This document shows positions 2,888 to 34,501 of a stretch of 38,209 nt of DNA, piece by piece (within the stretch, counting starts at the first letter, position 1; each line of letters opens with the position of its first letter). Source of the stretch: an uncultured bacterium (GTDB taxonomy: Bacteria; JAJVIF01; JAPKYR01); contig CBDUUJ010000001.1 of the NCBI GenBank assembly GCA_965370205.1, forward strand, positions 1 to 38,209, given 5' to 3'. The position numbers and the translations under genes are program-made. The notes beneath the pieces are model-generated. The model was not told the DNA's origin. It saw only the letters and a program-made list of their open reading frames with translations, and did no database searches.

Positions 2888-5800
2888 TTAATACAAGTCA
2901 AATATATACAATCCCATAGTTTGGGAAGCTTCGTATAAATAGCCGTCAAACGCCAGGAGATCGCGTGGGTGGTGATAAAGAATATCACCATAAATATGAC
3001 CCAGGTTGGCAGGACTGTTCGGGGGCCAGACCCAGAACGATACCGGATCTGTTGTGTAACCTGCTGCATACCCGAACTGCCCTTCCACGGTGAGGAAGCC
3101 ATAGCCGCCCATGTCCGGTGGCGGGAGCAGTTCAGAGCCCAAATTAGCAGGCGCTGCCGGGTCAGTTAGATCGGCGATTTCAATTGAATCATATGTCAGG
3201 GCATACAGGTAATTACCGTGGATCTCCGATTCCATATAGCCCGGACTGCCGGGGGTGGAATAAGACCCGACATAAGCGGGATTGAGCGGATTGGTAATTG
3301 AATATATCTCTATGGCATCTCCCGAGCAAACATACATGTAATCCCCGTTGAAAGTGAAATCATAGACGCCATAAGTAAACGACATTGTCATTTCATAATG
3401 GGGTGAATATGGGTTGGAAATGTCGTAAATTTTAACCGGATGGCCTACCTGACTTATATAAACATAGATCGCGTTTTCATAAATGCCAAGCGCGTAGACA
3501 AAGTCAGCCTCAGTCTTAAAATACATAGGTGAGATATTAAGCGGATCCGAAGCGTCATGCAGTGCCCAGATTTTACCTGAATCTGTCGCCAGGACATCGC
3601 CATACAACTGCAGTTCGGAACCAGGATATGCAGGGAAATACTCAGCAGCAACATACGTGCTGGATGGGTCGGAAATGTCAAGTGTCTTGATCCCATCGAA
3701 ACCCGCTGTAATCAGCCAGTCATCCTTTTCAACAAATGAATATGCACTGTTTACCACCTTAAGACGAGAGAGAGATGAAGGTATTTGCGGGATACCGCAG
3801 TCGAAAATCTGGAAACCGGCTCTATAGGGAATGATATATGCAAGGTCATCCCGAACCGCTAGATCCCTCCCCTGGGAAATCATCGGTGTTGAGCTGATAT
3901 AAACCGGGTCGGCCGGGTTCGTAACTTCGCATATCGTCAGCCCGGATTCATCATTACCAATATACGCGTAAGGCCACTCAAGATCGATATACCATGCACT
4001 ATCAGGCACATCAACGGAACCGAATTCGAGAACACTGTTGGTCGCTGAATACAATATCTTCAGAAATCCTTCCCCTGTACTTATTACAGATGCTGCATAT
4101 ATGTAGTTACCTTCGATGGCAATATCCCTCGCCCAGCCGGCTGGGTAGGTATAAGAACCTTTCTGAGTGACCGAAGAGGGATTTTCCACGTCATACACGA
4201 TAATGTCATGCCATGTGCATTCTACAATCCTGGTATCCGGCCCCTCCGGATCGATTAACCCAAGACGCTGCGGACCATACGGAACATTGAATTCGCCGAC
4301 CTTGTCAGGATTCAGCGGGTCGGTCGCATAGTCATATATATATACTTCTGAGGTGGGATTCACACTGGTGCCCACATACAGATGGGTCGAGTTCATGGTT
4401 ATATCACCAAGATCCATCATGATGATCATAAGACCCTCATGGTTAACCGGAGAAGTAATATCAGTGAAATCAATCATGTTGATTTCTGTTTCATCGATAC
4501 CGAGTCCGTTTGTATAGTACAGATATGGATAATTGAAACAGAAAGCCTCGTTCATGTAAATTTTCTCGGTGTACACCTGCACCGGATTGGTTGGATCGCT
4601 TATGTCATACACCCAGAGGCCCATTCCAAAAAGAATCGCATAATCATCGTGCAGCCAGACTCTTTCCGGATTGACGTAAAGGTCCGACGGAGTGACATCC
4701 ACCGGGTTAGATGGAATTACATCTGTAAGCTCTCCCGTAAATTCAAGCAGATAGGGAGATGTCTGTGTATCATTCGATGTCAGCACGCGGATAAAATACT
4801 GCCCCGGCGTGAGAGCGAGATTTTGAAGTCCGATAGACGCTTCACCACCAGAAACATTCACTTCTTCAATCAGAGCATAGGAATCATCGTACAACCCGAG
4901 TTTCGTGGGTTCGGCATCGCACCAGAGACTGATACCACCTGATATGTCATAACCCGGATCGATTTCGAAAAAATAAAAATCACGGTAATCATCGGGAAGA
5001 CATACCTGATCGATAACCTGGTCACCAAATACAATCTCTACCGCCTCAAGCCAGTCATTGTTGGCATCCGCTGAACATTCGGGATCGGGGATATCGAGTA
5101 CGAGAACATTATATGCCGACAGAGAATCATCCGGAGCAGGCATCGCAGTCTGCTGGTATGTCGAGCCATCCGATGATCCCACCCGGCAGACAATGAGCGT
5201 TTCTCCCGCTTCCGACGGAACCGCTGTACCTGTCAAATCGACCGTGTAAACCGCTTTTTCGGCTGTCTGTTTATGCAGAATTCCGTCAGCGCCGCTCGGC
5301 ATCAGGTCCGGAGCCACGACCCGTACCGCGTCGATTTCCGGGACAATATTTCCCGCAGCCTGTCCCTGCCAGTCGAAAATACCGGCCTCAAGCCTTAAAA
5401 CCCCGCCGCCGATTCCCGACTCGCTGTCGTAATAGAGTGTATTTGCAGTCGTCTTCAAACCAATCCGGTACGCTTCCGGCTGATTCGCGTTCATTGGAAA
5501 ATCATCCGGAACCGCATCTGGAGGATTCGGTGACGGCGGATTCCACGCGCAGTCAATTGCGTATCCATACACGATCTGCGGACCGGGGTCCATCGGGAAT
5601 CTGATTTCATATCGACGGGTGTTGCTGCTTCCGGCAGTGAAAACCGCTCTCCCCTGGTCGCTGTCGAGCGGTTCATAGCATACAGCACCCAAACTGCTCG
5701 TCGCATAGAGAATATCCGCGAACAGCTTGTATGGATTCACTGTCGCTGTTAATGAACTTCCCGGCGCGGACGCTAGAATTCCATCTTCATATCCGAGCAT

Positions 5801-6313
5801 TCCGGGTGACGTAAACTCCGTCGGATTCCACCAACGCGTGTATCCATCGGCATTTTCAAGACGGGTCTCATCAGCGCCCGCATAAACAAGCGACCCGACC
5901 GCGTACGTGCCCGGTGTGACTAAAATTCCCTTCACATCGAATCCCGCCAACTGCGGTGATGTTCCGAACGGATGAGCAAGCGTGATATCGAAAACGAATA
6001 ATCCGTTCGCGGGATCATGTTCGGATGGCACCCCGGCTGCGGAAACTCCCATCGTAGAGTTCAGAATCCCCGTCAGATTGAAATGCCATTCCGCCGACCG
6101 TAATGGATGCACTTCAATCCCGTAACTCTCGGAATCCACCTCAATAAGATAATACCCGAGACATTGATGGGTCCGTTCGGATGAACCATCACGCGACATC
6201 AGGATGCCTGGGTCGGAAAGCGGATCGGGATCGGTCGGACCGCCCTGGCATCCGGCTAACGCAATACCTGCGAGGAGAAATATGCAAATGGCGGAAGATA
6301 AGAATGTACGCAT
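2888..6313 (-). CDS. Array paralogue 1 of 7: predicted surface lipoprotein (conserved N-module + PPC-like module + ~14 LVIVD-type propeller repeats), 1141 aa
   Basis: ORF 2888-6364 trimmed to the ATG at 6313. GGAGG lies 10 nt upstream and the product then begins MRTFLSSAICIFLLAGIALAG|C (lipobox LAGC), followed by a Pro/Asp-rich tether. PPC-like signature: ANNDW..A..I.....DDYRDFYFFEI...LGLYDD...GQYFIRV...YLLEF. Repeated blades follow (LWVYDISDPTNP, VYIYDYATDPLNP, IKTLDISDPSS, VKIYDISNPYSP, IEIYSITNPLNP, IEIADLTDPAAP ...) up to the C-terminal LYIFDLY. Confidence 0.9.
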   Translation of the reverse strand: MRTFLSSAICIFLLAGIALAGCQGGPTDPDPLSDPGILMSRDGSSERTHQCLGYYLIEVDSESYGIEVHPLRSAEWHFNLTGILNSTMGVSAAGVPSEHDPANGLFVFDITLAHPFGTSPQLAGFDVKGILVTPGTYAVGSLVYAGADETRLENADGYTRWWNPTEFTSPGMLGYEDGILASAPGSSLTATVNPYKLFADILYATSSLGAVCYEPLDSDQGRAVFTAGSSNTRRYEIRFPMDPGPQIVYGYAIDCAWNPPSPNPPDAVPDDFPMNANQPEAYRIGLKTTANTLYYDSESGIGGGVLRLEAGIFDWQGQAAGNIVPEIDAVRVVAPDLMPSGADGILHKQTAEKAVYTVDLTGTAVPSEAGETLIVCRVGSSDGSTYQQTAMPAPDDSLSAYNVLVLDIPDPECSADANNDWLEAVEIVFGDQVIDQVCLPDDYRDFYFFEIDPGYDISGGISLWCDAEPTKLGLYDDSYALIEEVNVSGGEASIGLQNLALTPGQYFIRVLTSNDTQTSPYLLEFTGELTDVIPSNPVDVTPSDLYVNPERVWLHDDYAILFGMGLWVYDISDPTNPVQVYTEKIYMNEAFCFNYPYLYYTNGLGIDETEINMIDFTDITSPVNHEGLMIIMMDLGDITMNSTHLYVGTSVNPTSEVYIYDYATDPLNPDKVGEFNVPYGPQRLGLIDPEGPDTRIVECTWHDIIVYDVENPSSVTQKGSYTYPAGWARDIAIEGNYIYAASVISTGEGFLKILYSATNSVLEFGSVDVPDSAWYIDLEWPYAYIGNDESGLTICEVTNPADPVYISSTPMISQGRDLAVRDDLAYIIPYRAGFQIFDCGIPQIPSSLSRLKVVNSAYSFVEKDDWLITAGFDGIKTLDISDPSSTYVAAEYFPAYPGSELQLYGDVLATDSGKIWALHDASDPLNISPMYFKTEADFVYALGIYENAIYVYISQVGHPVKIYDISNPYSPHYEMTMSFTYGVYDFTFNGDYMYVCSGDAIEIYSITNPLNPAYVGSYSTPGSPGYMESEIHGNYLYALTYDSIEIADLTDPAAPANLGSELLPPPDMGGYGFLTVEGQFGYAAGYTTDPVSFWVWPPNSPANLGHIYGDILYHHPRDLLAFDGYLYEASQTMGLYIFDLY
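5075..6172 (-). repeat. Conserved ~1.1-kb 5' module of the paralogue family, copy 1 of 7 (dispersed direct repeat)
   Basis: Encodes HQCLGYY...LDIPDPEC. It aligns essentially codon for codon with 9599-10693, 13082-14176, 16577-17671, 20079-21173, 23577-24668 and 27022-28116. The lower boundary is the invariant Cys codon, located by hand in every copy. Confidence 0.9.
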
Positions 6314-6344
6314 GACAAACACACCTCCGGATCTGGTTAATGTA

Positions 6345-6353
6345 ATTATAACA
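6345..6353 (-). promoter_or_regulatory. Extended -10 promoter element (TGtTATAAT) for paralogue 1
   Basis: The minus strand reads ACTGTTATAATTACATTAACCAGATCCGGAGGTGTGTTTGTCATG. It has a perfect TGnTATAAT 31 nt before the ATG and sits downstream of a terminator at 6405-6430. No good -35 is present (GTCAAT). The cassette is homologous to those upstream of paralogues 7, 5 and 3. Confidence 0.45.
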
Positions 6354-6404
6354 GTAAAACGCAAATTATTGACAGCGTCTGAGTTGAGATGGAGAAAGAA
6401 ACTG

Positions 6405-7390: not shown

Positions 7391-10300
7391 TTAATAAAGC
7401 TGGAATATATGAATCCCCTTATAATATGGAACCATTTCGTAAAGATAGCTGTTATCGATTACCATGCTGCTGATTGTATATTCCCCGGGATGAACCTGAC
7501 CGAGCGCTGACGGGCTGTCCGACGGCCATACATTGCAGAAATACGGCGGCATCGGTTTCGAGCCGTGAATATACGCGAACTGCCCGACCATGGTGATACC
7601 GTCAAGCGGATCAAACGCGCCGACATCGATTGTGCTCTCGAAAGCAGGGATTGACGGGTCGCTCAGGTTCGCGATCTCAAGATCCGTATCCGTAATCAGG
7701 TAGATATAATCGCCCTGCACCGATGAATCCTCAAGGTCTGAAGCCATTGGATACGCGCCGATATAGGACGGATTCAGTGGATCGGCGACCGAATATATTT
7801 CCAGGCCGGGATCTGTATCGAGATACATACAAGCCCAATAGAAGGAAAAACCACGCGCAATGTCAGGCGCAACGAACATATCCGTGGTTGTTACAAAGGG
7901 CAGAGAACCGATGTCATATGTAACCACTTTTTTTGAGTCCAGCGCGACATACAGCGCATCATTATGCATGGCAATGGCCATTATGTCCTCGGGTAATGGA
8001 ACGGCTATTATAAGCGACAGATCGGTCGGATCGCTCGCATCGAAAAGCATCCATTGTTTCATGGACGCAACTGCCAGGATGTCATTCTGCAGGTCCAGAT
8101 AGCAGGGCGGGACCGACAGGAAAAACTCTCCAACAACATGTGCGTTTGATGGATCGGAGATATCCACAGTCTTGATTGCAGAATATCCAAACGCCATATC
8201 AGCAACAATAAGATAATCGCCGGAAACTACCGCTGACCAGGGATTATTGACCACCTTTAGACGGGCAATGGGATCGGGTAAAGAGGGATTCTGTATGTCG
8301 AACACCTGAAGCCCCGCGTTATATGGAGCAATACAAAGAATATGCTCATTAATCGATAGATGCCCCCCCAGGGAAATAAGCGGTACCGAACATTTGTGAA
8401 TCGGGGTTGAAGGAATGGAGACATCGCAGACGGTAAGCCCTGCGGAAGTATCACCGATAAACACATACGGCCAGTCAAGAGCGGTAAAGCCGCCTTCACC
8501 GGGTATATCCACCGATCCGAATTCAAAAAAACCGGGCATTGACGGATCGAGGTGCATTACATATAACCATCCATCATTGCCGCTCTTGGCATAAGCAAGA
8601 TAAATCAGATTCCCCCGGGTCGACATGCCGCGCGGTGAGCCTGCTGGAAACGGATAGGGAACTACGTCTGTGACTGCCGACGGGTCATCAACCGAATACG
8701 CATGAATCATGGCGCCATCCGCATCGCCTACTACCAGATACTTTCCAAAGCCGTCTATCTCTGTCAGCGCCATATAATATGTGTAATAGGTGATTGGGAT
8801 GCTGCCGACCTCGACAGGATCAAGCGGATCGGTTATGTAGTCATATATTTTGATTTCATAGGCGGGAGCGGAACCTGTATGGAGATACAGGTGTGTGGAA
8901 TCAAGGCATATTCCTTTTATTCCGTCAGGATACGTGATTAATCCCTCGTGCTGTACCGGGGCAAGCGGGTCAGTGAAATCAACCAGGCCTAACTGCCGTT
9001 CATCAATTCCCGAGATCGTTGAATAGTAACAATATGGATAGTGGAAATTTCCTACCTCTGCCAGGTAGTAATCCTCATTGGCAACCTGAATGGGATTCGC
9101 GGGATCGGTCAGATCATACACCCAGCACTCATAGCCGCAGAGGAAAGCATACTGATCATGAAGCCAGACATATCGCGGATTGACATAGAGCGTCTCCGGT
9201 GTCACATCGACCGGGTCAATGGGTACCACATCCACAAGCTCCCCGTCCAGTTCAAGAAGATACGGCACCACGTTATCGCAACATGGACTTCCCACTCTTA
9301 TGTAATATTGTCCGGGCATCAGCGCCAGTTCATCAAATGATAAAACCGCGACCCCATCCGCCACATAAACATCGGCTATGTGGGATTCCGACCCGTCATA
9401 CAGTCTCAGAGTCGGTTGCGTTGGCCACGGAGGATCGGCATTGGCGTTCAGCCTGATCTCGCCAGTCGCTTCATACCCGACGGGAATGTAAAACGAATAA
9501 AAATCATACCCATCATCCGGATTGCACACCTGATCGATTGCCTCACCGCCGAAATCGATCGGAACCGCCTCGCCGAAATCGTTATTGGCATCTGCCGCAC
9601 AATCCGGATCGGGGATATCGAGCGCAAGAACCTGGTATGCCGACAGGGAATCGGTTGGGGCAGGAGCTCCAGTCTGCTGGTATGTCGAACCATCCGATGA
9701 CGCAACCCGGCAGATAACGAGCGTTTCCCCAGCTTCCGATGGTTCCGCCACTCCGGTCAGGTCAGCCATGTAGACCGCTTTCTCCGCAGTCTTGTACTGT
9801 AAAATCCCATCCACTCCACTCGGCATAAGGTCCGGAGCGATAATCCGTACCGCGTCGATTTCCGGCGGTATATTTCCAGCCGCCTGACCCTGCCAGTCGA
9901 AAACACCGATCTCAAGCCTCAGAACCCCACCGCCGACTCCAAATTCATCATCATAATAGAGAGTGTTCGCAACCGTTTTAATCCCTATCCGATAGGCTTC
10001 AGGCTGATTAGCGTTCATCGGGAAATCATCGGGGACTTCCCCTGGCGGATTCGGGCTTGGCGGATTCCACGCGCAGTCAATTGCATATCCGTAAACAACC
10101 AGCGGACCCGGGTCCATCGGGAACCTGATCTCATACCGACGGGTATTGCTGCTTCCGGCAGTGAAAACCGCTCTCCCCTGATCGCTGTCCAATGGTTCAT
10201 AGCAGACCGACCCAAGATTGCTCGTTGGATATAGAATATCCGCGAACAGCTTGTATGGATTTATTGTCGCCGTCAGAGCACTGGCAGGAGCGGACGCGAG

Positions 10301-10831
10301 AATTCCATCCTCGTATCCAAGCATCCCCGGTGACGTGAACTCGGTCGGATTCCACCAGCGCGTGTATCCATCCGCATTTTCGAGACGGGTTTCATCCGCA
10401 CCCGCGTAAACGAGCGACCCGACCGCGTACGTTCCCGGCGTGATTAAAATTCCCTTCACGTCGAATCCCGCAAGCTGCGGCGATGTATCGAACGGATGCG
10501 CAAGAGTAATATCAAAAACAAACAATCCGTTCGCTGGATCATGCTCGGATGGCACCCCGGCCGCCGAGACTCCCATCGTAGAGTTAAGAACCCCGGTCAG
10601 ATTAAAATGCCATTCAGTTGATCGCAAAGGAATAATCTCAACCGAATAGCTCTCAGTATCAATCTCAACCATGTGGAACCCAAGACATTGATGCGAGGAA
10701 GAACTCGCTGATTCACCGAGCACTGGATTTTCCGTTGATGGCGCCGGGCTGGTGGGATTGTCACTACATCCCACAAGGATAAATAGAATCAAAATAAACA
10801 ACCAGGCGAATACAAGGCTTGATCGGAACAT
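7391..10831 (-). CDS. Array paralogue 2 of 7: predicted surface lipoprotein, same architecture, 1146 aa
   Basis: ORF 7391-10864 trimmed to the ATG at 10831 (GGGAGGG 8 nt upstream). The product begins MFRSSLVFAWLFILILFILVG|C (lipobox LVGC). It has the conserved N-module (SHQCLGF...LDIPDPDC), a PPC-like module (ANNDFGEA..I......DDGYDFYSFYI...LRLYDG...GQYYIRV...YLLEL), LVIVD-type blades and C-terminal IHIFQLY. Confidence 0.9.
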   Translation of the reverse strand: MFRSSLVFAWLFILILFILVGCSDNPTSPAPSTENPVLGESASSSSHQCLGFHMVEIDTESYSVEIIPLRSTEWHFNLTGVLNSTMGVSAAGVPSEHDPANGLFVFDITLAHPFDTSPQLAGFDVKGILITPGTYAVGSLVYAGADETRLENADGYTRWWNPTEFTSPGMLGYEDGILASAPASALTATINPYKLFADILYPTSNLGSVCYEPLDSDQGRAVFTAGSSNTRRYEIRFPMDPGPLVVYGYAIDCAWNPPSPNPPGEVPDDFPMNANQPEAYRIGIKTVANTLYYDDEFGVGGGVLRLEIGVFDWQGQAAGNIPPEIDAVRIIAPDLMPSGVDGILQYKTAEKAVYMADLTGVAEPSEAGETLVICRVASSDGSTYQQTGAPAPTDSLSAYQVLALDIPDPDCAADANNDFGEAVPIDFGGEAIDQVCNPDDGYDFYSFYIPVGYEATGEIRLNANADPPWPTQPTLRLYDGSESHIADVYVADGVAVLSFDELALMPGQYYIRVGSPCCDNVVPYLLELDGELVDVVPIDPVDVTPETLYVNPRYVWLHDQYAFLCGYECWVYDLTDPANPIQVANEDYYLAEVGNFHYPYCYYSTISGIDERQLGLVDFTDPLAPVQHEGLITYPDGIKGICLDSTHLYLHTGSAPAYEIKIYDYITDPLDPVEVGSIPITYYTYYMALTEIDGFGKYLVVGDADGAMIHAYSVDDPSAVTDVVPYPFPAGSPRGMSTRGNLIYLAYAKSGNDGWLYVMHLDPSMPGFFEFGSVDIPGEGGFTALDWPYVFIGDTSAGLTVCDVSIPSTPIHKCSVPLISLGGHLSINEHILCIAPYNAGLQVFDIQNPSLPDPIARLKVVNNPWSAVVSGDYLIVADMAFGYSAIKTVDISDPSNAHVVGEFFLSVPPCYLDLQNDILAVASMKQWMLFDASDPTDLSLIIAVPLPEDIMAIAMHNDALYVALDSKKVVTYDIGSLPFVTTTDMFVAPDIARGFSFYWACMYLDTDPGLEIYSVADPLNPSYIGAYPMASDLEDSSVQGDYIYLITDTDLEIANLSDPSIPAFESTIDVGAFDPLDGITMVGQFAYIHGSKPMPPYFCNVWPSDSPSALGQVHPGEYTISSMVIDNSYLYEMVPYYKGIHIFQLY
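9599..10693 (-). repeat. Conserved 5' module, copy 2 of 7
   Basis: Same alignment as copy 1. The boundary Cys codon (TGT) is at 9599-9601. Confidence 0.9.
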
Positions 10832-10882
10832 GTCGGAACCCTCCCATGTTGGAATACAATACAAAGTACAACAATTACGAAA

Positions 10883-13800
10883 TCAGTACAGATCGAATAT
10901 TCGTACTCCCTTGTAATAAAGCGTCTCATACAGGTAGCCATTATCAACAGCTAATTGAATCACTTCCCATGCATCTTCAACAGGATATATATCCCCGAAC
11001 ACGGACGGGCTGTCAGGCGGCCAGAGATTAACCGCGGTCACGGGCTGCCAGTGATCGATATCCGCATATGCATACTGCCCTTCAATCGCCAGAACATCCG
11101 CGGGCGGGTTGTACGGCAATACCACATCGGCTGTGTACACAGGCAGACCGCCCGCTGAAATATCCGTAACCTCCAGCGTGTCCGTCGTGAGGATATATAA
11201 AGTATTACCCTGAATTACCAGGTCTATCGGATCATAACCCGGCGTGTAAGAACCGACATATGCCGGACTGTTCGGACTGGAAATATCAACATAATGAACA
11301 TCCGTTGTCGAATTCCCGTACATCCAGTCGCCCCTGAAAACGGGATTCCCGAGCTTGTCGGGAAGGCTTACCGGAGTTTTTGCCACTACAACAGGCCAGG
11401 AGGTAGTATCGTAAATATCTATAGTGCCATCAAGGAGGGAAATATATATCGCCTCATCGGTTACGCCGAGTCCAATAATACTTGTCGAATACGATTCCAG
11501 GGTAACCAGGTCTGGATTTTCAGGATCAGCCACATTGAAAATCCATACCGTATCACTGTCAGTTCCGGCGACAACGATGATTTCGCCTCGTCCGGCAATT
11601 GGAAACAGGACATCGTCGAGCAGGTATTCACCCTCGACATATGCATGTCCCGGGTCGGCAACATTCAATACTTTCAGGGCAGTATATGACAGGTATCCTT
11701 CGGTGAAATACGCATGGTCCCCAAGAATCGTCACACCGAACGGCTGGTTCAGAACCATAGGCCTGAATATTTCATTGGGAATTTCAGGATCGGTAAGGTC
11801 GTACCACACATAACCTGCGCCCTCGGGGATATTTATTAAAACATCGCCGTCAGCGCAGACATAGTGAGAATCCGACACCGTGGGAAGATATCCTTTCCAT
11901 GACGGCAATGACGGATTGGAGATATCCATTACATGGAGACCGAGCGACCCTCCGCCGATATACGCGTAATCGCCTGCCGTATCCACATACCTTGCGCGGG
12001 ATGAAGTGTAGGTGCTGCTCTCATTGACCAGGCCCGGTCCGGATGAATAGCTTTTAATGTTGAGCCAGCCGTTATCGAATGTATCAATTGTGGTTGTGTA
12101 GAAATAATCATCACCGATTGAAAGATCCTGGTGAGTAGAATCAATCAGTAGTGAAGCGGCCACGGTGGAAACGCTCATGGGGTCTTCGACATCGAAAAGT
12201 CCCATGTATGTATTGGTCAGCATTACAAGAACCGTCTCAGGACCCTCCGGATCGAGCAATCCAAGCCTGATTACATTCTCATCGACGACGAATTCATTCA
12301 CATATTGCGGATTGTACGGGTCTGTGGCGATATCATAAATATAAATTATGCCACCACCGACGCCATCGTTGGCCGCCAAGAACAGGTATTCGGAATTCAA
12401 CGTGATGTAATGCGTTTCGTATGGAATTTCGAGAACATCTTCATAATGCACCGGATTCGCCGGATCGGTGTAATCGATGACATCAATGCCTGCCGGAATG
12501 GCGCCAATGCTCTCGCAGTAATACAGGTAGGGATAATTAAACGCAGGCCAGGTGGTTGTGAAATCTTTGGTCCTGGATAAAAGCTGCGGATTTTCAGGAT
12601 AGCTGACGTCATAGACCCAGAATCCCGTATATCCGCCTAAGTACAGGTTGTTGCCGCGTTTTTCCAGCCATATCGGATCGAGTATAAGTCCGTCCGGAGT
12701 CACATCAACCGGGCTGGTTGGTTTGATATCAACATTCTCCCCTTCAATTTCAAGGAAATAGGTCACAGCTTGGTCGAAACTCGAAGTAAACACATTTATG
12801 TAATACTTCCCAACGTACAGGTCCAGATCGGTAAGATTGACTGTCGCAAGCCCGTCAACACAGGACGCGCCATCAAGAACCAACCCGTTCACATCATGGA
12901 CTATGACACCGCACGAATCGGCATCGCAGAAGAACCGTAATTCTCCCTCTGCCTTCCAACCCGACCAGATATCGAGGAAATACCAGTCCTCGTCATCGGT
13001 TCCGCCACACAGATAACCGCTCACATCATCATTGACCCAGATTTCCTCAGCGTCAAGATGAGAATTATTCGAATCGGCTTCGCATTCAGGATCGATAACG
13101 TCAACAGTTAATATTTTAAACGCACTGAGGTCCGCATCCGGGGCCGGACCAAATCCCTGATCGTATGTCGATCCATCGCTCGACCCAACTCTCATGATTA
13201 CAGGAAATTCCCCTGCGACCAAAGGTTCCGCGATTCCCGTCAGGTCGGCTTCGTACATAGCCTTTGTCGCACTATTATGGATTAAATCAGCGGTAACTCC
13301 TCCAGTCCAGAGATCGGGTGAGAAAAATCTCACAATGTCCACTTCATCAGCAGTATTCCCGGCGTACATCCCCTGCCAGTCGCGGATATCTGCCCAGAAG
13401 CGAAGAACACCTCCGGATTTCCCCGACTCACTGTCATGGAAAAGCGTATTGGCGACAGGTTCAAAGCTCACAAAAAACGCTTCCGGCTGATTCGCTTCCA
13501 TTGGAAAATCATCCGGAATTTCACCCGGCGGATTCGGGACAGGCACCGCCCATGACGCATCGATTGCGTAACCGTATACAACGAGCGGACCGGGGTCCAT
13601 CGGAAATCGGATGTAGTAACGTCGTACGTTTTCGCTCCCCGCTGTGAACACCCCCCGACCCTGATCGTCATCCAGAGGCGTTAACGAAAGCCATGATGTT
13701 CCTTGAGTTAAATTCAAGCAATCCGCGAATTGCTTGTAAGGATTAATCGTCGCCGTAAGGGATGACATCGGACCCAGGGCAAGATTACCCTGGGTGTATC

Positions 13801-14314
13801 CGAACATTCCCGGCGACGTGAACTCGGTCGGATTCCACCAGCGGGTGTACCCATCGGCGTTTTCGAGTCTCGTCTCATCCATGCCTGCAAAAATAAGCGA
13901 TCCGACCGCGTATGTCCCGGGAACCATCAGTATTCCCTTCACGTCGAAACCCGCAAGCTGCGGTTTTGTCTCGAACGGATGAGTGAGTGTGATATCGAAA
14001 ACAAATAGTCCGTTCGCGGGATCGGCTTCGCTCGGAACACCGACTGCCGACACTCCCATCGTCGTGTTGAGAATCCCGGTCAGGTTGAAATGCCATTCCG
14101 CTGTTCTCACGGGAATCGGATCGACTTTCAGCGTGTCTGTGTCGATCATCAGCATGTAATAACCGAGACATTGATGCGAGGAAGATTGTATCGGCTTGCC
14201 GCACACAGGACCTTCCGGTGATGCTGCGGGAACGGTGGGGTTGCCCTGGCATCCCAACGAGAAGACCGCAATAAAGACAGCCACATGTACATATTGTGAA
14301 AGAGTCCGAAACAT
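10883..14314 (-). CDS. Array paralogue 3 of 7: predicted surface lipoprotein, same architecture, 1143 aa
   Basis: ORF 10883-14344 trimmed to the ATG at 14314 (GGAGG 7 nt upstream). The product begins MFRTLSQYVHVAVFIAVFSLG|C (SLGC). This is the most divergent N-module of the set (for example AIDASWAVP instead of AIDCAWNPP) but it is collinear. PPC-like module: SNNSHLDA..I......DDEDWYFLDI...GKYYINV...YFLEI. C-terminal VRIFDLY. Confidence 0.9.
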   Translation of the reverse strand: MFRTLSQYVHVAVFIAVFSLGCQGNPTVPAASPEGPVCGKPIQSSSHQCLGYYMLMIDTDTLKVDPIPVRTAEWHFNLTGILNTTMGVSAVGVPSEADPANGLFVFDITLTHPFETKPQLAGFDVKGILMVPGTYAVGSLIFAGMDETRLENADGYTRWWNPTEFTSPGMFGYTQGNLALGPMSSLTATINPYKQFADCLNLTQGTSWLSLTPLDDDQGRGVFTAGSENVRRYYIRFPMDPGPLVVYGYAIDASWAVPVPNPPGEIPDDFPMEANQPEAFFVSFEPVANTLFHDSESGKSGGVLRFWADIRDWQGMYAGNTADEVDIVRFFSPDLWTGGVTADLIHNSATKAMYEADLTGIAEPLVAGEFPVIMRVGSSDGSTYDQGFGPAPDADLSAFKILTVDVIDPECEADSNNSHLDAEEIWVNDDVSGYLCGGTDDEDWYFLDIWSGWKAEGELRFFCDADSCGVIVHDVNGLVLDGASCVDGLATVNLTDLDLYVGKYYINVFTSSFDQAVTYFLEIEGENVDIKPTSPVDVTPDGLILDPIWLEKRGNNLYLGGYTGFWVYDVSYPENPQLLSRTKDFTTTWPAFNYPYLYYCESIGAIPAGIDVIDYTDPANPVHYEDVLEIPYETHYITLNSEYLFLAANDGVGGGIIYIYDIATDPYNPQYVNEFVVDENVIRLGLLDPEGPETVLVMLTNTYMGLFDVEDPMSVSTVAASLLIDSTHQDLSIGDDYFYTTTIDTFDNGWLNIKSYSSGPGLVNESSTYTSSRARYVDTAGDYAYIGGGSLGLHVMDISNPSLPSWKGYLPTVSDSHYVCADGDVLINIPEGAGYVWYDLTDPEIPNEIFRPMVLNQPFGVTILGDHAYFTEGYLSYTALKVLNVADPGHAYVEGEYLLDDVLFPIAGRGEIIVVAGTDSDTVWIFNVADPENPDLVTLESYSTSIIGLGVTDEAIYISLLDGTIDIYDTTSWPVVVAKTPVSLPDKLGNPVFRGDWMYGNSTTDVHYVDISSPNSPAYVGSYTPGYDPIDLVIQGNTLYILTTDTLEVTDISAGGLPVYTADVVLPYNPPADVLAIEGQYAYADIDHWQPVTAVNLWPPDSPSVFGDIYPVEDAWEVIQLAVDNGYLYETLYYKGVRIFDLY
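13082..14176 (-). repeat. Conserved 5' module, copy 3 of 7 (most diverged copy)
   Basis: Same alignment as copy 1. The boundary Cys codon (TGC) is at 13082-13084. Confidence 0.85.
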
Positions 14315-14344
14315 GATAAAACCTCCAGGTCGAAAATTTCTCAA

Positions 14345-14386: not shown

Positions 14387-17300
14387 TTAATACAGATCGA
14401 AGATATGAAGACCCCGATCGTGGGACACCTCGTAGAGATAGCCTTCGTGTACCAATAAATCGTTCACCATATAAGGTGGATAATCATATACCGTGCCGAA
14501 GAGAGAGGGACTGTCCGGCGGCCAGGCTGAGATTATTTGGGGAACCACCTCACCCGCGAGGTAGGCGTAATACCCCGTTACCGCAAGTTCGTACACCGGT
14601 TCAGGTCCGGTAATCGTCACTGAGCCCAGGAACGACGGAGCGGTTGGACTGCTCAGGTCCGCTATTTCAAGTGAGTTGTGCGTCACCATGTAAAGCATAT
14701 CCCAGCAGATTGACGATTCGTACACGCCTAATAAGGAATAAGTGTTTGTGTGAAAGGGATTATAGGGATCACTAAGTTCGTAAATCTCTATCCCTCCTAC
14801 CGTTGAAATGTACATGTAACCGGCATGGAAAGAGAAATCCGTTCCTGCCGATGTAGGGAAAAACAATGTTTCAAAAACCGGCGAGGATGGGTTGGTGATG
14901 TTGTAGACCGCCACACTGTCGGGGAATTCCATGGAAATATACAGGGCGTTGCCCCAAATCGCTATGGCTCTGATCGTATTTATTTCCGAGTCGGAATGCT
15001 CCAGTGTCAGGTTGAGCGGATCGCTCGCATCCAGCAGGTACCAGTCATAGGTTCCGGCGACCGCGAGCCTGTCATTGTCCAGCCACATATAGGATAGCCG
15101 CGGTGTCGCAACCCATTCAGCCACAATTTCAGCATTCGGGGGATCGGAGATGTCAATCGTCTTCACAGAGAAGCGTGAGATCGACGAGTCCACAACCAGA
15201 AGGTAGTCGCCGGTAACCTGAGCCTCGCAGGGTGAGTTCATCACGTCAAGGCAGTGCTCCAATTCAGGCTCGAGGACATTGGACACATCAAACATACACA
15301 TGCCCAATTGATCTGGAATAACACAAAGCGTATCTCCGCTTATATCGAGATCATGACCGTCTTGGACATCAGGACATGTGACAACATGGCTCGGTGCATT
15401 TGGAGTTGAAACATCGCAGATCGTGAACCCGCTCTCCCCTGTGCCGATATAGACATATGGCGACTGGTGAGCTATGGAGAATGCACAAGCGGGGCCGGCG
15501 GGGATATCCAGCGATCCAACTTCGACAACACTGGGTACGCTTGTCTGTTCAAGCACGTACAGCCATCCATCGGCTCCCCAATTATTATGGGCGATGAATA
15601 TAAAATCATCCCAGGTTGTGATATCGTTCGGGTGGCCGTTTGTGAAACTGTAAGTGCCTGCCGGGTCGACCCATAGCGGGTCCTCCACATCGAACGAGCG
15701 AATGTCCTGATCGATTATTGCAACCAAATGGGTGTCGGGTCCCTCCGAATCCATGAGCGTCAACCTCTTTGGGTAGTAGGGTACATTGAAATAACCAACC
15801 TCAATTGGGTTTTGCGGATCGGAGCCATACATAAAAATCCTAACCATAGAGGTCGGATTGACGCTGGTGCCGACATACAAGTGGGTTGAGTTCATGCAAA
15901 GGCTGCCGAGTTCGCATGAGAAGTGAAGCACATCATCATGCAGAACCGGCGACGCGGGATCGGTGAAATCAATGAGATTGATCTGGGACTCATCTGGGCT
16001 GATATAAACTATGTAGTAGCAGTACGGGTAATGGAAACAGCCCCTTTTCCCATGCCAGATTTCCTCGTGGGAAAGCTGAACGGGGTTCGCAGGATTGCTG
16101 ATATTGTGTACCCAGTAGCCATTGGCGCCCAGAAGGTAGGCATTGTCACCATGAAGCCATACCTGTTCCGGTTCGCAGTAAAGCGTTGAAGGGGTTACAT
16201 CAACAGGATTCGATGGGGTGATATCAACAAGTTCCGCCCTTAGTTCGAGAAGGTAAGGACGCACCCCTTCAGGAAGATTAGACGACACTCTCAGATAATA
16301 CAGTCCATGCATCAGATTGAGTCCACCGAGCTCAATAGCCTCAAGACCTTCAAATGGACATTCACTGGCAATCTGGCTCTCCGTCCCATCGAAGAGCGTC
16401 AGGCAGGTCGGACCCGCATCACTGTAGATCTGGATTTCTCCCATTACCCCGTAGCCTTCCGGAACGGTGAAGGAAAAGTAATCCGCGTTATCATTTGGGA
16501 GACAGACCTGATCAGCTATCGATTCCCCAAAATCGATTTCAACGGCCTCCCCAAAACCATTATTCGCGTCGCCCGCACATTCGGGATCGGGAATATCGAG
16601 AGTGATAACATGAAACGCGGAAATCTGCGTGTCCGGAGCGGGAGCACCAGCCTGCTGGTATGTCGATCCGTCCGATGACGCAACCCGGCAGATAACCATG
16701 GTCTCCCCAGCCTCGGACGGAACCGCTGTGCCTGTCAAATCGACCGTGTAAATCGCTTTTTCGGGTGTCTGTTCATGCAGAATCCCGTCGACGCCGCTCG
16801 GCATAAGGTCCGGAGCTACGATCCGTACCGCATCGATTTCCGGGACAATATTTCCCACGGCCTGACCCTGCCAGTCATGCACATTCATCTGCAATCTCAG
16901 CACTCCGCCGCCGATACCCGATTCGCTGTCGTAGTAAAGCGTATTCGCGGTCGTCTTCAACGCAATCCGATATGCCTCCGGCTGGTTCGCGTTCATCGGA
17001 AAATCATCCGGAACCTCCCCCGGTGGATTCGGACTCGGCGGATTCCACGCGCAGTCAATCGCATATCCGTAAACGATCTGCGGACCGGGGTCCATCGGGA
17101 ATCTGATCTCATACCGACGGGTATTGCTGCTTCCCGCAGTGAAAACCGCTCTCCCCTGATCGCTGTCCAGTGGTTCATAACAGACCGATCCAAGATTGCT
17201 CGTCGGATATAGAATATCCGCGAACAGCTTGTACGGATTTATGGTCGCTGTAAGTTCGCTTCCCGGAGCGGATGCGAGAATTCCATCCTCATATCCGAGC

Positions 17301-17818
17301 ATTCCAGGCGAACTGAACTCGGTCGGGTTCCACCAGCGCGAGTAACCATCGGCGTTTTCGAGACGGGTTTCATCCGCACCAGCATAAACAAGCGATCCGA
17401 CCGCGTATGTTCCCGGTGTGACAAGAATTCCCTTCACGTCGAACCCGGTAAACTGCGGCGATGTTCCGAACGGATGCGCAAGCGTGATATCGAAAACGAA
17501 TAAGCCGTTCGCGGGATCATGCTCGGATGGCACCCCGGCCGCCGAGACTCCCATGGTCGTGTTCATTATCCCTGCCAGATTGAAATGCCATTCCGCCGAC
17601 CGTAATGGATGCACTTCAATCCCGTAACTCTTGGAATCCACCTCAATAAGATAATACCCGAGGCATTGATGGGAACATGCGGCAGTCTGTGATGATGCAG
17701 ATAATCCCGGATCATCCCCCGGACCGGGAAGGATCGGACTTCGCTGACACCCGGTCAGGATTATGAACAGGATAAAAATCATAAACGCGTACGCAAATGG
17801 TGAAAAGAATCGGTGCAT
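14387..17818 (-). CDS. Array paralogue 4 of 7: predicted surface lipoprotein, same architecture, 1143 aa
   Basis: The ATG at 17818 has AAGGAG 9 nt upstream. The product begins MHRFFSPFAYAFMIFILFIILTG|C (LTGC). It has the conserved N-module (SHQCLGYY...LDIPDPEC), a PPC-like module, LVIVD-type blades and C-terminal LHIFDLY. Confidence 0.9.
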   Translation of the reverse strand: MHRFFSPFAYAFMIFILFIILTGCQRSPILPGPGDDPGLSASSQTAACSHQCLGYYLIEVDSKSYGIEVHPLRSAEWHFNLAGIMNTTMGVSAAGVPSEHDPANGLFVFDITLAHPFGTSPQFTGFDVKGILVTPGTYAVGSLVYAGADETRLENADGYSRWWNPTEFSSPGMLGYEDGILASAPGSELTATINPYKLFADILYPTSNLGSVCYEPLDSDQGRAVFTAGSSNTRRYEIRFPMDPGPQIVYGYAIDCAWNPPSPNPPGEVPDDFPMNANQPEAYRIALKTTANTLYYDSESGIGGGVLRLQMNVHDWQGQAVGNIVPEIDAVRIVAPDLMPSGVDGILHEQTPEKAIYTVDLTGTAVPSEAGETMVICRVASSDGSTYQQAGAPAPDTQISAFHVITLDIPDPECAGDANNGFGEAVEIDFGESIADQVCLPNDNADYFSFTVPEGYGVMGEIQIYSDAGPTCLTLFDGTESQIASECPFEGLEAIELGGLNLMHGLYYLRVSSNLPEGVRPYLLELRAELVDITPSNPVDVTPSTLYCEPEQVWLHGDNAYLLGANGYWVHNISNPANPVQLSHEEIWHGKRGCFHYPYCYYIVYISPDESQINLIDFTDPASPVLHDDVLHFSCELGSLCMNSTHLYVGTSVNPTSMVRIFMYGSDPQNPIEVGYFNVPYYPKRLTLMDSEGPDTHLVAIIDQDIRSFDVEDPLWVDPAGTYSFTNGHPNDITTWDDFIFIAHNNWGADGWLYVLEQTSVPSVVEVGSLDIPAGPACAFSIAHQSPYVYIGTGESGFTICDVSTPNAPSHVVTCPDVQDGHDLDISGDTLCVIPDQLGMCMFDVSNVLEPELEHCLDVMNSPCEAQVTGDYLLVVDSSISRFSVKTIDISDPPNAEIVAEWVATPRLSYMWLDNDRLAVAGTYDWYLLDASDPLNLTLEHSDSEINTIRAIAIWGNALYISMEFPDSVAVYNITNPSSPVFETLFFPTSAGTDFSFHAGYMYISTVGGIEIYELSDPYNPFHTNTYSLLGVYESSICWDMLYMVTHNSLEIADLSSPTAPSFLGSVTITGPEPVYELAVTGYYAYLAGEVVPQIISAWPPDSPSLFGTVYDYPPYMVNDLLVHEGYLYEVSHDRGLHIFDLY
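16577..17671 (-). repeat. Conserved 5' module, copy 4 of 7
   Basis: Same alignment as copy 1. The boundary Cys codon is at 16577-16579. Confidence 0.9.
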
Positions 17819-17891: not shown

Positions 17892-20800
17892 TCAGTACAA
17901 ATCAAAAATCCGAATGCCGGCAAACTCAGACGCATTATATAGAAAGCCCTCATGAGTAAGCAGGAACGTCCCGCCGTAGTCGTCTGTGGTAACCGGTCCA
18001 AACGGCGATGGGCTGTCGGGAGGCCAGACCCGGCAAGTGTATATCCCATCGTTCATAGTTACCGCATATACGAACTGACCGCCGACGATAATGGAATTGA
18101 TATACGTGACCGGCAGTGTAGTTGAGCCGGCAAAAACGGGGGAGCCTGGAATACTGATATCCACTATTTCAACGTCCGTTTCTGTGGCCATGTGCAGGTA
18201 ATCTCCCCTGATATCCATTCCATGAACATAGGTGATCAGGTAATTACCCTCAAAGACCGGGTTAAACGGATCTGTTAGCGAATACACCAGTATTTCAAGA
18301 TTATTATTAAGGTACATGTAGTTTTCTTTAAAAGATATATCGCAAACATTATTCGTCAGGCTGATAGCATTTTCGTAAGTTGGGGCCGCCGGGACGCTTA
18401 TATCAAAAATCTGAATCTCCGGACCTCCCACCGGTTCCAGGGCAACATAAAATGCATCCCCCCGAACAGCCATGGACCAGATATGATTTGAGACTGGTAC
18501 GGATATGTGATGTGTGATATTTAGTGGATCCGTAGCGTCGTAAAGCCCCCAGAGCATATTGAATCTTGCGATAAGGTTATTCCCGTCCAGGACCAGGTAA
18601 GTGGGTTGCTCAGTGAGGAAGTGTTCTGCGACAACGCTTGCATTTGGCGGATCAGAGATATCAACTGTTTTAAAACCTTTATGGTACATCCCGGATTCAG
18701 TGACAATGAGATAGCCATCCTTGACAACCATGGAGCCGGGCCTGTTCACTACCTGCAGTCGTGAGAGGGTGTTCGGGGCAGCGGGATCGGATACATCCAC
18801 AGCCTGAAGGCCTGCGCCCATTGGAATGATGTAAACCACATCGTTATCCTCGGCCAGATGTGTGCCGACAGATACAAGCGGGATAGAGCTTTCATGAACC
18901 GGTAAGGCAGGATCGGCCACGTTCACAGTGGTCAGGCCGGCATCTCCATCACCCATGTATACATACGGCCATGCGATTGTAATATTGCTTGCAAAACCCG
19001 GTGTATCCAGAGTGCTTTCCTCTACGATATCCGGGACAAGCGTCTGCCTTAATACGTACAGCCATCCCTCACCCCCGCCGGAAACATCATGTGCGACATA
19101 TATGTAGTCATCCCAGGTCGCGATATCCCGTGGCGGTCCTAAGGGAAATGTGTACGTGCCGGTCTGTGTTACGGAAGACGGAACTTCGACATCGTAAGTG
19201 AGTATATCATCCCATGTGCCGATGACAAGATGCGTGCCGGACCCTTCGGGATCAAGCAGATCAAGGAGCCTTGCCTCATACGGAACATTGAAACTGTCAA
19301 CTACGGCAGGATTAAGGGGGTCTGAAGCATAATCATAAATAATGGCTTCGGATGTGGGATTGACTTTTGTAGTGACATACAAATGAGTTGAATTGATGCA
19401 TATTCCGGAAATCTGAGTTGGGTAGTGAAGAACATCCTCATGCAGGACCGGTGCATACGGATCGCTGAAATCAATCAGGTCGATCCGATCCTCCCAGTTA
19501 CCTGCATATTTAACCATGTAGCAGTAAGGGTATTTGAAACACGCTTTTGTATTCATGCGGATATCAAGGTCGTGTGACAATTGAACCGGGTTACCCGGAT
19601 CGCTGACATCGTATACCCATGTACCCTTGCCGACCAGAAAAGCCATATTATTGTGGATCCAGACTTTATTTGGATTGACATAAAGGTCGGAAGGTGTCAC
19701 ATCCAGAGGGTTTAATGGGGTTACATCAATAAGCTCCGCGTCGAGTTCGAGAAAATACGGTCGCACACCAGGTGAAACATCCGGGTAGACCTGCAGGTAA
19801 TACAATCCGGGCATCAGGTCAAGTTTATCGAAAGAAAGCTCCGCGATATTGCCGGATGTACTCGCGCCTGTAATGATATCCTCCGATTCATCATACAACT
19901 TCATTGAAGCCGGACCAGCGTCACTGTAAAGATAAATTGTGCCGACGGCTTCATAATCCGGATCAATGTTAAAGAAATAAAAGTCCTTCATATCATCCGG
20001 TATACACACCTCGTCGGCAACGAAATCCCCGATATTCAGTTCAACTGCCTGTGAATAATCATTGTTATCATCCGCAGCACAATCAGGATCGAAAATATCG
20101 AGAGTGATAACATGGAACGCGGAAATCTGCGTGTCCGGAGCGGGAGCACCAGCCTGCTGGTATGTCGATCCGTCCGATGACGCCACCCGGCAGATAACGA
20201 GCGTTCCTCCAGCCTCCGATGGAATTGCCGTGCCCGTAAGATCGACTGTGTAAACAGCTTTTTCGGGTGTCTGTTCATGCAGAACCCCGTCAATACCGCT
20301 CGGCATAAGGTCCGGAGCCACGATCCGTACCGCGTCGATTTCCGGTACGATATTTCCCGCAGCCTGTCCCTGCCAGTCGAAAACGCCGATCTCAAGCCTT
20401 AAAACTCCACCGCCGATTCCCGACTCGCTGTCGTAATAGAGAGTATTTGCTGTCGTCTTCAAACCAATCCGGTACGCTTCCGGCTGATTTGCGTTCATAG
20501 GAAAATCATCCGGAACCTCCCCCGGCGGATTCGGGCTTGGTGGATTCCACGCGCAATCTATCGCATATCCATACACAATCTGCGGACCCGGGTCCATCGG
20601 GAATCTGATCTCGTATCGACGGGTGTTGCTGCTTCCCGCTGTAAAAACGCCACGACCCTGATCGCTGTCGAGCGGCTCATAGCACACCGAACCAAGACTG
20701 CTTGTCGGGTAGAGGATGTCCGCGAAATATTTATATGGATTCACTGTCGCAGTGAGTAAACTACCCGGCGCAGACGCGAGAATTCCATTCTCATATCCAA

Positions 20801-21347: not shown

Positions 21348-21375
21348 ATTATACCATCTAACCGGAATTTGTCAG
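21348..21375 (-). promoter_or_regulatory. Sigma-70-type promoter for paralogue 5 (CTGACA - 16 nt - TGgTATAAT)
   Basis: The minus strand reads CTGACAAATTCCGGTTAGATGGTATAATTAATTCACATTAAATTGTGGAGGTTTTCTCATG. The -35 is 5/6 and overlaps the TGA stop of paralogue 6. The spacer is 16 nt, the extended -10 is perfect, and the -10 lies 30 nt from the ATG. Confidence 0.5.
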
Positions 21376-24812: not shown

Positions 24813-24843
24813 GAGGTTATCCTCCGGTTTTCGATCTGATAAA

Positions 24844-34476: not shown

Positions 34477-34501
34477 AAAGGATCTGTCCCTCCAGTACCC
34501 G

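What the first reader, a model, noticed from the sequence alone, without database searches (positions are those of the whole stretch)
5075..6172. Conserved ~365-aa N-terminal module that I cannot assign to a named family, with an invariant H-x-C at its start
This is the best-conserved part of every copy, and it carries no motif I can tie to a known family. Residues conserved in all seven copies include H-(Q/N)-C directly after the tether, EWHFNLTG, TMGVSA.GVPSE.DPANGLFVFDITL.HPF, AGFDVKG, RLENADGY.RWWNPTEF.SPGM, NPYK, D.DQGR.VFTAG, RRY.IRFPM, YGYAID, PDDFP..ANQPEA, GGVLR, DWQG and SSDGSTY. Strong conservation next to a hypervariable propeller suggests this is the functional or anchoring core, for example an enzymatic module, an envelope-attachment module or an assembly module. 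The His/Cys pair could be catalytic or metal-binding. All of that is speculation.
Basis: partly seen in the sequence, partly recalled or inferred. Interest (0 to 1): 0.65.

Follow-up and report, generated by a model that had tools for sequence, protein, structure and literature searches.

The report
Unannotated conserved module of expanded lipoproteins
The conserved ~365-residue block is real: it is an unnamed two-domain module that starts a very large family of membrane-anchored lipoproteins in an uncultured bacterial lineage, probably a shared docking base for varied outer domains, and its His-x-Cys is not an active site.

Summary
Observation confirmed. Seven tandem minus-strand genes each encode a lipoprotein signal, a ~25-aa tether, a 366-aa module, a PPC-like domain and an LVIVD propeller. 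The module is 77% identical between copies and the propeller 33%. Synonymous sites in the module are heavily diverged, so the conservation reflects protein-level selection.

No named family fits. Pfam, NCBIfam and PDB sequence and profile searches found nothing. Confident AlphaFold models (domain 1 pLDDT 92) have no credible Foldseek match in PDB or BFVD.

The family is large but unannotated, with 2,082 cluster representatives. The module is always single and N-terminal. It follows a lipobox and a length-constant tether. At least 45 copies occur in one MAG, often in tandem arrays. C-terminal domains vary: several propeller types, PKD, and HExxH metalloprotease-like domains.

H-x-C is specific to a subfamily (His 65%, Cys 30%) and lies in a low-confidence N-terminal stretch of the model. 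The family-wide invariant residues lie in domain 1.

Best reading, inferred and not shown: a non-catalytic docking or positioning base that holds varied domains at a fixed distance from the membrane. An enzymatic role is not excluded.

The parts
6248..6313 (-). Copy 1 lipoprotein signal peptide, from the probable true start M18 to the lipobox L-A-G-C (Cys39)
   Evidence: Sequence read directly. A lipobox-type ..[GAS]-C follows a hydrophobic stretch in 149 of 152 N-terminally complete family members. No signal-peptide predictor was run.
6173..6247 (-). Copy 1 tether, 25 aa rich in Pro/Ser/Gly/Asp, between the lipidated Cys and the module
   Evidence: Tether length across the family has median 25 aa and IQR 24-27. 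It carries the motif C-[SQ]-G-N-P-x-x-P. Identity between the seven copies is only 29%.
5471..6172 (-). Copy 1 module domain 1 (aa 65-298). A beta-sandwich with long ordered loops that holds most family-invariant residues, including (A/P)DGYTRWWNPTEF, HPF and GFDV(K/R)G.
   Evidence: AF2 pLDDT 91.9, pTM 0.86. Best Foldseek PDB hit has E 0.044, prob 0.11. 82% identity between copies, 138 of 234 columns invariant. 40 columns are >=90% conserved across 175 members.
5075..5470 (-). Copy 1 module domain 2 (aa 299-430). An all-beta, Ig-like sandwich ending in ...DPEC.
   Evidence: Strand pattern in the AF2 model. 69% identity between copies. Only 8 columns are >=90% conserved family-wide. Only weak 120-155-column beta-sandwich matches.
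4730..5074 (-). Copy 1 PPC-like variable domain (aa 431-545). Outside the finding, listed for context.
   Evidence: Pfam PPC is sub-threshold in copy 2 (E 0.13). One relative hits PPC at 1.1e-10. 39% identity between copies.
2891..4729 (-). Copy 1 LVIVD-repeat beta-propeller region (aa 546-1158). Outside the finding, listed for context.
   Evidence: Pfam LVIVD E 2e-12. TIGR04312 choice-of-anchor B E 6e-9, below its cutoff. 33% identity between copies.
9599..10696 (-). Module of copy 2 (ORF 7391-10864)
13082..14179 (-). Module of copy 3 (ORF 10883-14344), the most divergent copy
16577..17674 (-). Module of copy 4 (ORF 14387-17818). Carries EWHFNLAG and TGFDVKG.
20079..21176 (-). Module of copy 5 (ORF 17892-21317)
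23577..24671 (-). Module of copy 6 (ORF 21372-24884; the true start is probably at 24812). Has H-N-C instead of H-Q-C.
27022..28119 (-). Module of copy 7 (ORF 24844-28260)

Best explanation
Shown:
- The block is a previously unannotated two-domain, all-beta module. Domain 1 is a beta-sandwich with long ordered loops and no detectable solved relative. Domain 2 is Ig-like.
- It forms the constant N-terminal part of a very large lipoprotein family in a deep-branching, uncultured bacterial lineage.
- Every member has a lipoprotein signal, a ~25-aa Pro/Ser-rich tether of nearly fixed length, exactly one module, and then a variable C-terminal domain.
- In this window that C-terminal part is a PPC-like domain plus an LVIVD propeller. 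Elsewhere it is another propeller type, PKD, or an HExxH metalloprotease-like domain.

Inferred:
- The module is a non-catalytic docking or positioning base.
- Domain 1 would use its invariant polar and aromatic residues (R25, N32, D62, H67, D79, N107, D109, R113, W114, W115, N116, E119, K149, R175, R186, E233) to bind one common ligand, most plausibly a component of the cell's own envelope.
- Domain 2 would act as a spacer.
- The diversified C-terminal domains would thereby be displayed at a defined distance from the membrane.
- The H-x-C at the module start is a subfamily feature of the first strand region, not an active site.
For: - No named family.
- Models are confident (pLDDT 82 for the whole module, 91.9 for domain 1). 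They have no credible structural neighbour (best TM 0.22-0.27).
- Family size and position: 2,082 representatives at E<=1e-3. In the 150 listed, the module is a single stretch that begins by about residue 106 (mostly 35-76; earlier in N-terminally truncated entries). Protein lengths are 335-1542 aa.
- Lipobox in essentially all members. Tether median 25 aa, IQR 24-27. Motif C-[SQ]-G-N-P-x-x-P.
- C-terminal domains differ, and some are probable enzymes in their own right: PQQ_2, LVIVD, BNR, PD40 and SBBP propellers, PKD, reprolysin-like. A coherent HEL[GAS]H subfamily exists.
- Dozens of paralogues per genome, scattered among housekeeping genes, often in tandem arrays. This is the pattern of shared anchoring modules.
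- Strong purifying selection on the module while the propeller diverges. The paralogues are old.
- 40 of the 48 columns that are >=90% conserved lie in domain 1.
Against: - No ligand, partner or localisation is shown.
- No conserved neighbouring gene that could encode a partner was found.
- So many invariant charged residues (His, Asp, Glu, Lys, Arg) would also suit an enzyme active site.
- The proteins already have a lipid anchor, so a second anchor is not strictly needed.
- The envelope type of the host is unknown. The only hints are 'Planctomycetota' labels and RND pump genes nearby.
Confidence: 0.45

Rival explanations
1. Domain 1 is an enzyme, for example a glycan- or peptide-acting hydrolase or lyase built on a beta-sandwich. 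The variable C-terminal propellers would target it to different substrates.
For: Many strictly conserved polar residues, several of them within predicted strands (D62, D79, K149, R186) and others just after strands or in the long ordered loop (H67, R113, N116, E119). This arrangement is typical of cleft-type beta-sandwich enzymes and lectins (general knowledge). Conservation holds across the 175 members examined from a family of more than 2,000 clusters.
Against: No sequence or fold match to any enzyme family. A recurrent subfamily already carries its own HExxH protease-like domain, and others carry a BNR sialidase-like propeller, so two catalytic domains per protein would be needed. Forty-five or more paralogues of one enzyme per genome is unusual.
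Confidence: 0.22
2. The module is a sorting or export recognition domain. A lineage-specific machinery would read it, together with the conserved C-[SQ]-G-N-P-x-x-P tether, to move lipoproteins to the cell surface.
For: Strict N-terminal position, fixed tether length and conserved post-Cys motif. Huge lineage-restricted expansion with arbitrary C-terminal cargo. This resembles how the T9SS CTD or lipoprotein export signals are distributed (general knowledge).
Against: A 366-aa two-domain fold is very large for a sorting signal. No candidate machinery gene recurs next to family members. This reading overlaps with the docking hypothesis and cannot be separated from it here.
Confidence: 0.15
3. 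The conservation is maintained at the DNA level. Gene conversion or recombination between tandem copies would keep a shared 5' cassette for shuffling the variable 3' ends.
For: Tandem, same-strand copies. Synonymous difference is somewhat lower in the module than in the propeller (0.59 vs 0.77). A few identical tracts of 56-68 nt occur between copies 1/4, 2/5 and 4/5.
Against: Module pS of 0.42-0.73 is near saturation while pN is 0.15, which is the signature of purifying selection on the protein. Nucleotide identity is only 63-84%. The same residues are conserved in over 1,000 distant clusters from other genomes. Each copy has a closer relative in another genome than within its own array.
Confidence: 0.05
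4. The His-x-Cys at the module start is a catalytic dyad or a metal site.
For: It is invariant in the seven window copies.
Against: Across the family His is 65% (Arg 25%) and Cys 30% (Leu 47%). No other column of the module alignment carries Cys consistently together with it. The residues sit in the low-confidence segment before strand 1 (residues 1-9 pLDDT <50; mean 61).
Confidence: 0.03

Closest known systems
Clostridioides difficile cell-wall protein (Cwp) family with CWB2 anchoring domains, and SLH-domain surface proteins of Bacillota (from general knowledge)
   Same: Both are multigene families of dozens of paralogues per genome. A strongly conserved envelope-anchoring module is joined to very different functional domains such as proteases, adhesins and repeats.
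   Different: No sequence or fold similarity: there is no Pfam hit. Here the module is a single two-domain unit, not three CWB2 or SLH repeats. It is combined with a lipid anchor and a fixed tether. Binding to an envelope polymer is not shown.
LVIVD-repeat cell-surface proteins (PF08309; Adindla et al. 2004, PMC2447325) and TIGR04312 choice-of-anchor B
   Same: The C-terminal half of the seven window proteins matches LVIVD (E 1e-4 to 2e-12). It weakly matches choice-of-anchor B. These are described as cell-surface repeats (abstract listed).
   Different: This concerns only the variable propeller, not the module in the finding. Many family members carry no LVIVD region at all.
Paralogous lipoprotein families in tandem arrays with a conserved N-terminal part, for example in Mycoplasma, and Bacteroidota surface lipoproteins with N-terminal Ig-like domains such as SusE/F (from general knowledge)
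   Same: A lipobox, a conserved N-terminal region, a variable remainder, tandem gene arrays and a presumed cell-surface location.
   Different: No homology was detected. The module here is much larger and far more strongly conserved (77% vs 33%). It has a distinct domain 1 without structural relatives.
Multi-beta-sandwich proteins returned by Foldseek: transglutaminase 2 (6kzb), DUF4785 lpg0956 (4kh9), cupin and Eph-receptor jelly rolls
   Same: All-beta sandwich architecture.
   Different: TM-scores are 0.1-0.27, rmsd 15-19 A and identity 7-14%. Probability is <=0.11 for domain 1. This is not evidence of relationship.

Membership tests
Bacterial lipoproteins (Lgt/LspA substrates) | N-terminal signal peptide ending in a lipobox [LVI][ASTVI][GAS]-C | tested here: met
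   All seven copies have LAGC, LVGC, SLGC, LTGC, LIGC, AVGC or LPGC after a hydrophobic stretch. A relaxed regex matched 140 of 152 N-terminally complete relatives, and the mismatches I inspected still end in ..[GA]-C after a hydrophobic stretch. A second pass placed such a Cys in 149 members. This is pattern-based; no SignalP-type predictor was available.
Any Pfam-A family (2025) or NCBIfam (release 20) covering the module | Profile-HMM match to residues 65-430 at or near the curated threshold | tested here: not met
   No family was found for the module, even at E<=10. The 32 module sequences gave only isolated chance hits at E>0.04. None of 51 diverse full-length members has a hit over the module.
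Any protein of known structure (PDB) | Sequence, profile or fold similarity | tested here: not met
   His 99 of 153 (Arg 39). Cys 49 of 164 (Leu 77).
LVIVD repeat / choice-of-anchor B | LVIVD repeat profile match within the module | tested here: not met
   LVIVD matches lie at aa ~780-1060, in the propeller and never in aa 65-430.
SLH / CWB2 / LysM-type envelope-anchoring modules | Sequence membership in those Pfam families | tested here: not met
   No Pfam hit. The resemblance is only in family logic: a conserved module with variable C-terminal domains and many paralogues.
SLH / CWB2 / LysM-type envelope-anchoring modules | Binding to a cell-wall polymer | not testable with these tools
   Needs biochemistry, for example pull-down of the purified module with envelope fractions.
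PPC (pre-peptidase C-terminal) domain, for the segment just after the module | PF04151 match above the gathering score | tested here: inconclusive
   Copy 2 scores E 0.13, 13.5 bits against a cutoff of 25.9. One relative reaches E 1.1e-10.

The most novel reading that the evidence does not exclude
Domain 1 is a new fold-level family. It defines a lineage-specific cell-surface display system: a lipid anchor, a ruler-like 25-aa tether and a new envelope-binding domain. Together these would position a repertoire of dozens of interchangeable binding and catalytic heads per cell. Functionally this would be a new counterpart of SLH, CWB2 or T9SS-CTD systems. Alternatively, domain 1 is a new enzyme class.
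Probability: 0.3. Interest if true: 0.7.

Novelty: new variant of a known kind. Interest (0 to 1): 0.5.

Why it matters
The family has more than 2,000 sequence clusters, and single genomes of an uncultured lineage carry dozens of copies. Yet its constant module has no name, no solved relative and no annotation beyond 'hypothetical protein'.

Defining the module would:
- allow a Pfam-type family to be built, giving this large set of currently unnamed proteins a family label;
- flag a probable surface-display architecture that dominates the predicted surface proteome of these organisms;
- offer a well-folded (pLDDT 92), experimentally tractable domain for finding what it binds.

It also corrects the tempting but wrong idea of a His/Cys active site.

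Tried and rejected
- Pfam, NCBIfam and PDB sequence and profile searches of the module found nothing.
- Foldseek of the whole module against PDB and BFVD, and of domain 1 against PDB, gave only low-TM beta-sandwich noise.
- I looked for a Cys that co-varies with the H-x-C cysteine, as a possible disulfide partner. None was found within the module.
- Gene conversion as the cause of conservation is rejected on synonymous divergence and short identical tracts.
- I looked for a conserved non-family neighbour gene in 75 related loci. Only stand-alone LVIVD proteins, some synteny and a small HEAT-like protein next to one subfamily recur. There is no general partner.
- Taxonomic naming through RpoA homologues and cluster members returned only 'bacterium' labels. 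The nearest named relatives are ~43-46% identical.
- Exact look-up of a window protein in the assembly index found nothing on record.
- Literature searches for LVIVD plus lipoprotein, and for the motif strings, found nothing on this module.
It was repeated with 79 sequences.
Full report
**What is in the window.** Seven same-strand (minus) ORFs of 1138-1170 aa fill 2888-28260. On one side lies carB. On the other lie a heparinase II/III-like gene and a ribosomal-protein/rpoA/adk/secY cluster. This is therefore an ordinary bacterial chromosome.

Each ORF encodes, in order:
- a hydrophobic leader ending in a lipobox (LAGC, LVGC, SLGC, LTGC, LIGC, AVGC or LPGC);
- a 23-25-aa Pro/Ser/Gly/Asp-rich tether;
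- the conserved block of the finding, 366 aa (365 in copy 6);
- a ~115-aa PPC-like segment;
- a ~610-aa LVIVD-repeat propeller region.

The finding's coordinates, 5075-6172, are exactly aa 65-430 of copy 1.

**Checking the observation.** Mean pairwise identity by region:

| Region | Identity |
|---|---|
| Module | 77% (61-90%), 187 of 366 columns invariant |
| Tether | 29% |
| PPC-like segment | 39% |
| Propeller | 33% |

Eleven of the thirteen listed motifs occur in all seven copies. EWHFNLTG and AGFDVKG fail only in copy 4, which has EWHFNLAG and TGFDVKG.

The contrast is not due to recent DNA homogenisation:
- Proportional synonymous difference in the module is 0.59 (0.42-0.73), against a non-synonymous difference of 0.15.
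- The propeller has 0.77 and 0.47.
- Nucleotide identity between module copies is 63-84%, and the longest shared exact tracts are 20-68 nt.
- Each copy's propeller is closer (40-52%) to a gene in another genome than to its neighbours in the array (<=43%).

The array is therefore old, and the module is held by purifying selection on the protein.

**Is it a named family?** No.
- Pfam-A (2025) and NCBIfam (2026) give nothing over the module, even at E<=10 and across 32 module sequences and 51 diverse full-length members.
- phmmer and a profile search of all PDB sequences give no hit at E<=10.
- AlphaFold2 with family alignments gives a confident model: pLDDT 82 and pTM 0.83 for the whole module, and pLDDT 91.9 and pTM 0.86 for residues 1-234.

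The model has two parts. Domain 1 (module residues 1-234) is a beta-sandwich with long, well-ordered loops. Domain 2 (235-366) is an Ig-like sandwich.

Foldseek results:
- Whole module against PDB: best hit transglutaminase 2, E 8e-4 but TM 0.22 and rmsd 16 A.
- Domain 1 against PDB: best E 0.044, probability 0.11, TM <=0.27.
- Against BFVD: nothing.

No AFDB library or HHpred was available. 'No relative' therefore means none in Pfam, NCBIfam, PDB or BFVD.

**The family.** The word-indexed search found only 28 and then 54 proteins. Every one that carries a source name is called 'hypothetical protein', and none has a Pfam domain over the module.

The exhaustive HMMER search of 1.84 billion cluster representatives found 2,082 at E<=1e-3 and 1,282 at E<=1e-30. 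In all 150 listed, the module is a single stretch at the N-terminus. It begins by about residue 106, mostly at residues 35-76. The proteins are 335-1542 aa long.

In species-representative genomes at least 421 copies were confirmed. The best 74 loci come from only nine MAGs, labelled 'Planctomycetota bacterium' or just 'bacterium'. In the fetched DNA alone one MAG has about 45 module genes. Tandem arrays of 2-5 are common.

The window's RpoA has 70-81% relatives that are unnamed or labelled only 'bacterium'. The nearest named relatives are ~43-46% identical. This is a deep, uncultured lineage.

**Architecture rules across the family.**
1. *Lipoprotein signal.* A relaxed lipobox regex matched 140 of 152 N-terminally complete members. 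The mismatches I inspected still end in ..[GA]-C after a hydrophobic stretch. A second pass placed such a Cys in 149 members.
2. *Tether.* Its length is almost constant, with median 25 aa and IQR 24-27. It begins C-[SQ]-G-N-P-x-x-P.
3. *C-terminal part.* It is interchangeable: PQQ_2/BamB-like, LVIVD, BNR, PD40, SBBP and DUF5122 propellers, PKD and TIG domains, PPC, and reprolysin-like metalloprotease domains. There is a coherent 625-660-aa subfamily with HEL[GAS]H..G[ML], itself found in tandem arrays.
4. *Neighbours.* No non-family gene accompanies the family consistently.

**The H-x-C.**
- Across 175 members His is 65% (Arg 25%) and Cys only 30% (Leu 47%).
- The generally conserved feature there is [HR]-x-x-[LW]-G-x-[YW], the start of strand 1.
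- No other column of the module alignment carries Cys consistently together with it.
- The residues are in the least confident part of both models.

A catalytic or metal role across the family is therefore rejected.

The residues that are >=90% conserved family-wide are listed. Forty of these 48 columns lie in domain 1. They include R25, N32, D62, H67-P68, F78-D79, G82, N107, D109-G110, R113-W114-W115-N116, E119-F120, N146, K149, R175, R186 and E233. Within the window, domain 1 is 82% identical between copies and domain 2 is 69%.

**Interpretation.** What is shown is a new, strongly constrained N-terminal module. It is shared by a very large lineage-restricted lipoprotein family with swappable C-terminal domains.

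What I infer is that the module is a docking or positioning base. Domain 1 would bind one common ligand, domain 2 would act as a spacer, and the fixed tether would set the distance from the membrane. The ligand is most plausibly a component of the cell's own envelope, given the Trp-Trp/Arg/Asn/Glu signature, which is typical of glycan sites.

The reasons are:
- the strict position and tether geometry;
- the presence of C-terminal domains that are probably catalytic themselves;
- dozens of paralogues per genome, which mirrors SLH and CWB2 families.

I put this at about 0.45.

The main rival, at about 0.2, is that domain 1 is itself an enzyme, because so many charged residues are invariant. A sorting or export-recognition role (about 0.15) overlaps with docking. 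DNA-level homogenisation and a His/Cys site are essentially excluded.

The key test, whether the invariant residues form one exposed groove or a pocket, therefore remains to be done.

**Novelty and score.** The general kind is familiar: a modular surface lipoprotein family with a conserved base and variable heads. The module itself is unannotated and, as far as these libraries show, structurally unrelated to anything solved. I rate it a new variant of a known kind, with interest 0.5. It is a solid candidate for a new domain family and an attractive experimental target, but its function is not yet demonstrated.

Noticed in passing
window 6466-7209 (-): In the only large gap of the array, between copies 1 and 2, lies a 247-aa secreted, very acidic protein. 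By eye it consists of two PPC-like repeats (E.ND...A..I......G.....D.DWF.L). It has no Pfam hit at E<=1e-3.
   Followed up: partly
window 24812-24884 and 6313-6364: The mechanical ORF starts (TTG) of copies 6 and 1 are probably too far upstream. A public gene call (P0029) starts copy 6 at MNRIIQ (24812), which removes the apparent overlap with copy 7. Copy 1 probably starts at M18 (6313).
   Followed up: partly
family-wide; window copy 1 6173-6247: The tether between the lipidated Cys and the module has nearly constant length (median 25 aa, IQR 24-27). It begins with a conserved C-[SQ]-G-N-P-x-x-P motif, although its sequence is otherwise variable.
   Followed up: yes
L076 6830-16468; proteins P0012, P0015, P0107, P0115, P0296-P0298: A subfamily of 625-660 aa joins the module to an HEL[GAS]H..G[ML] zinc-protease-like domain. 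It also occurs in tandem arrays (646/660/660/645 aa). Genes for ~200-aa proteins with faint HEAT_2 hits lie within and just after the array. A similar small protein, not scanned against Pfam, recurs in six other loci.
   Followed up: partly
window 28387-30477 (+); L002 3803-6361: A heparinase II/III-like protein with an N-terminal membrane segment lies divergently next to the array. It is syntenic with a family member in a related MAG.
   Followed up: no
L018 18086-20413 and nine other ORFs in related loci: Stand-alone LVIVD-repeat proteins without the module recur near family members: 10 ORFs in 9 loci.
   Followed up: no
window 2888-28260 compared with L003, L008, L020, L026, L043: Each of the seven propellers has a closer relative (40-52% identity) in another genome than within its own array. 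The paralogues therefore predate the divergence of these genomes.
   Followed up: yes
window 33385-34524 (-) rpoA: RpoA has 70-81% identical relatives that are unnamed or labelled only 'bacterium'. The next named relatives (Bacillota) are ~43-46% identical. MAGs carrying the family are labelled Planctomycetota, Firmicutes or bacterium, so the public taxonomy of this lineage is inconsistent.
   Followed up: partly
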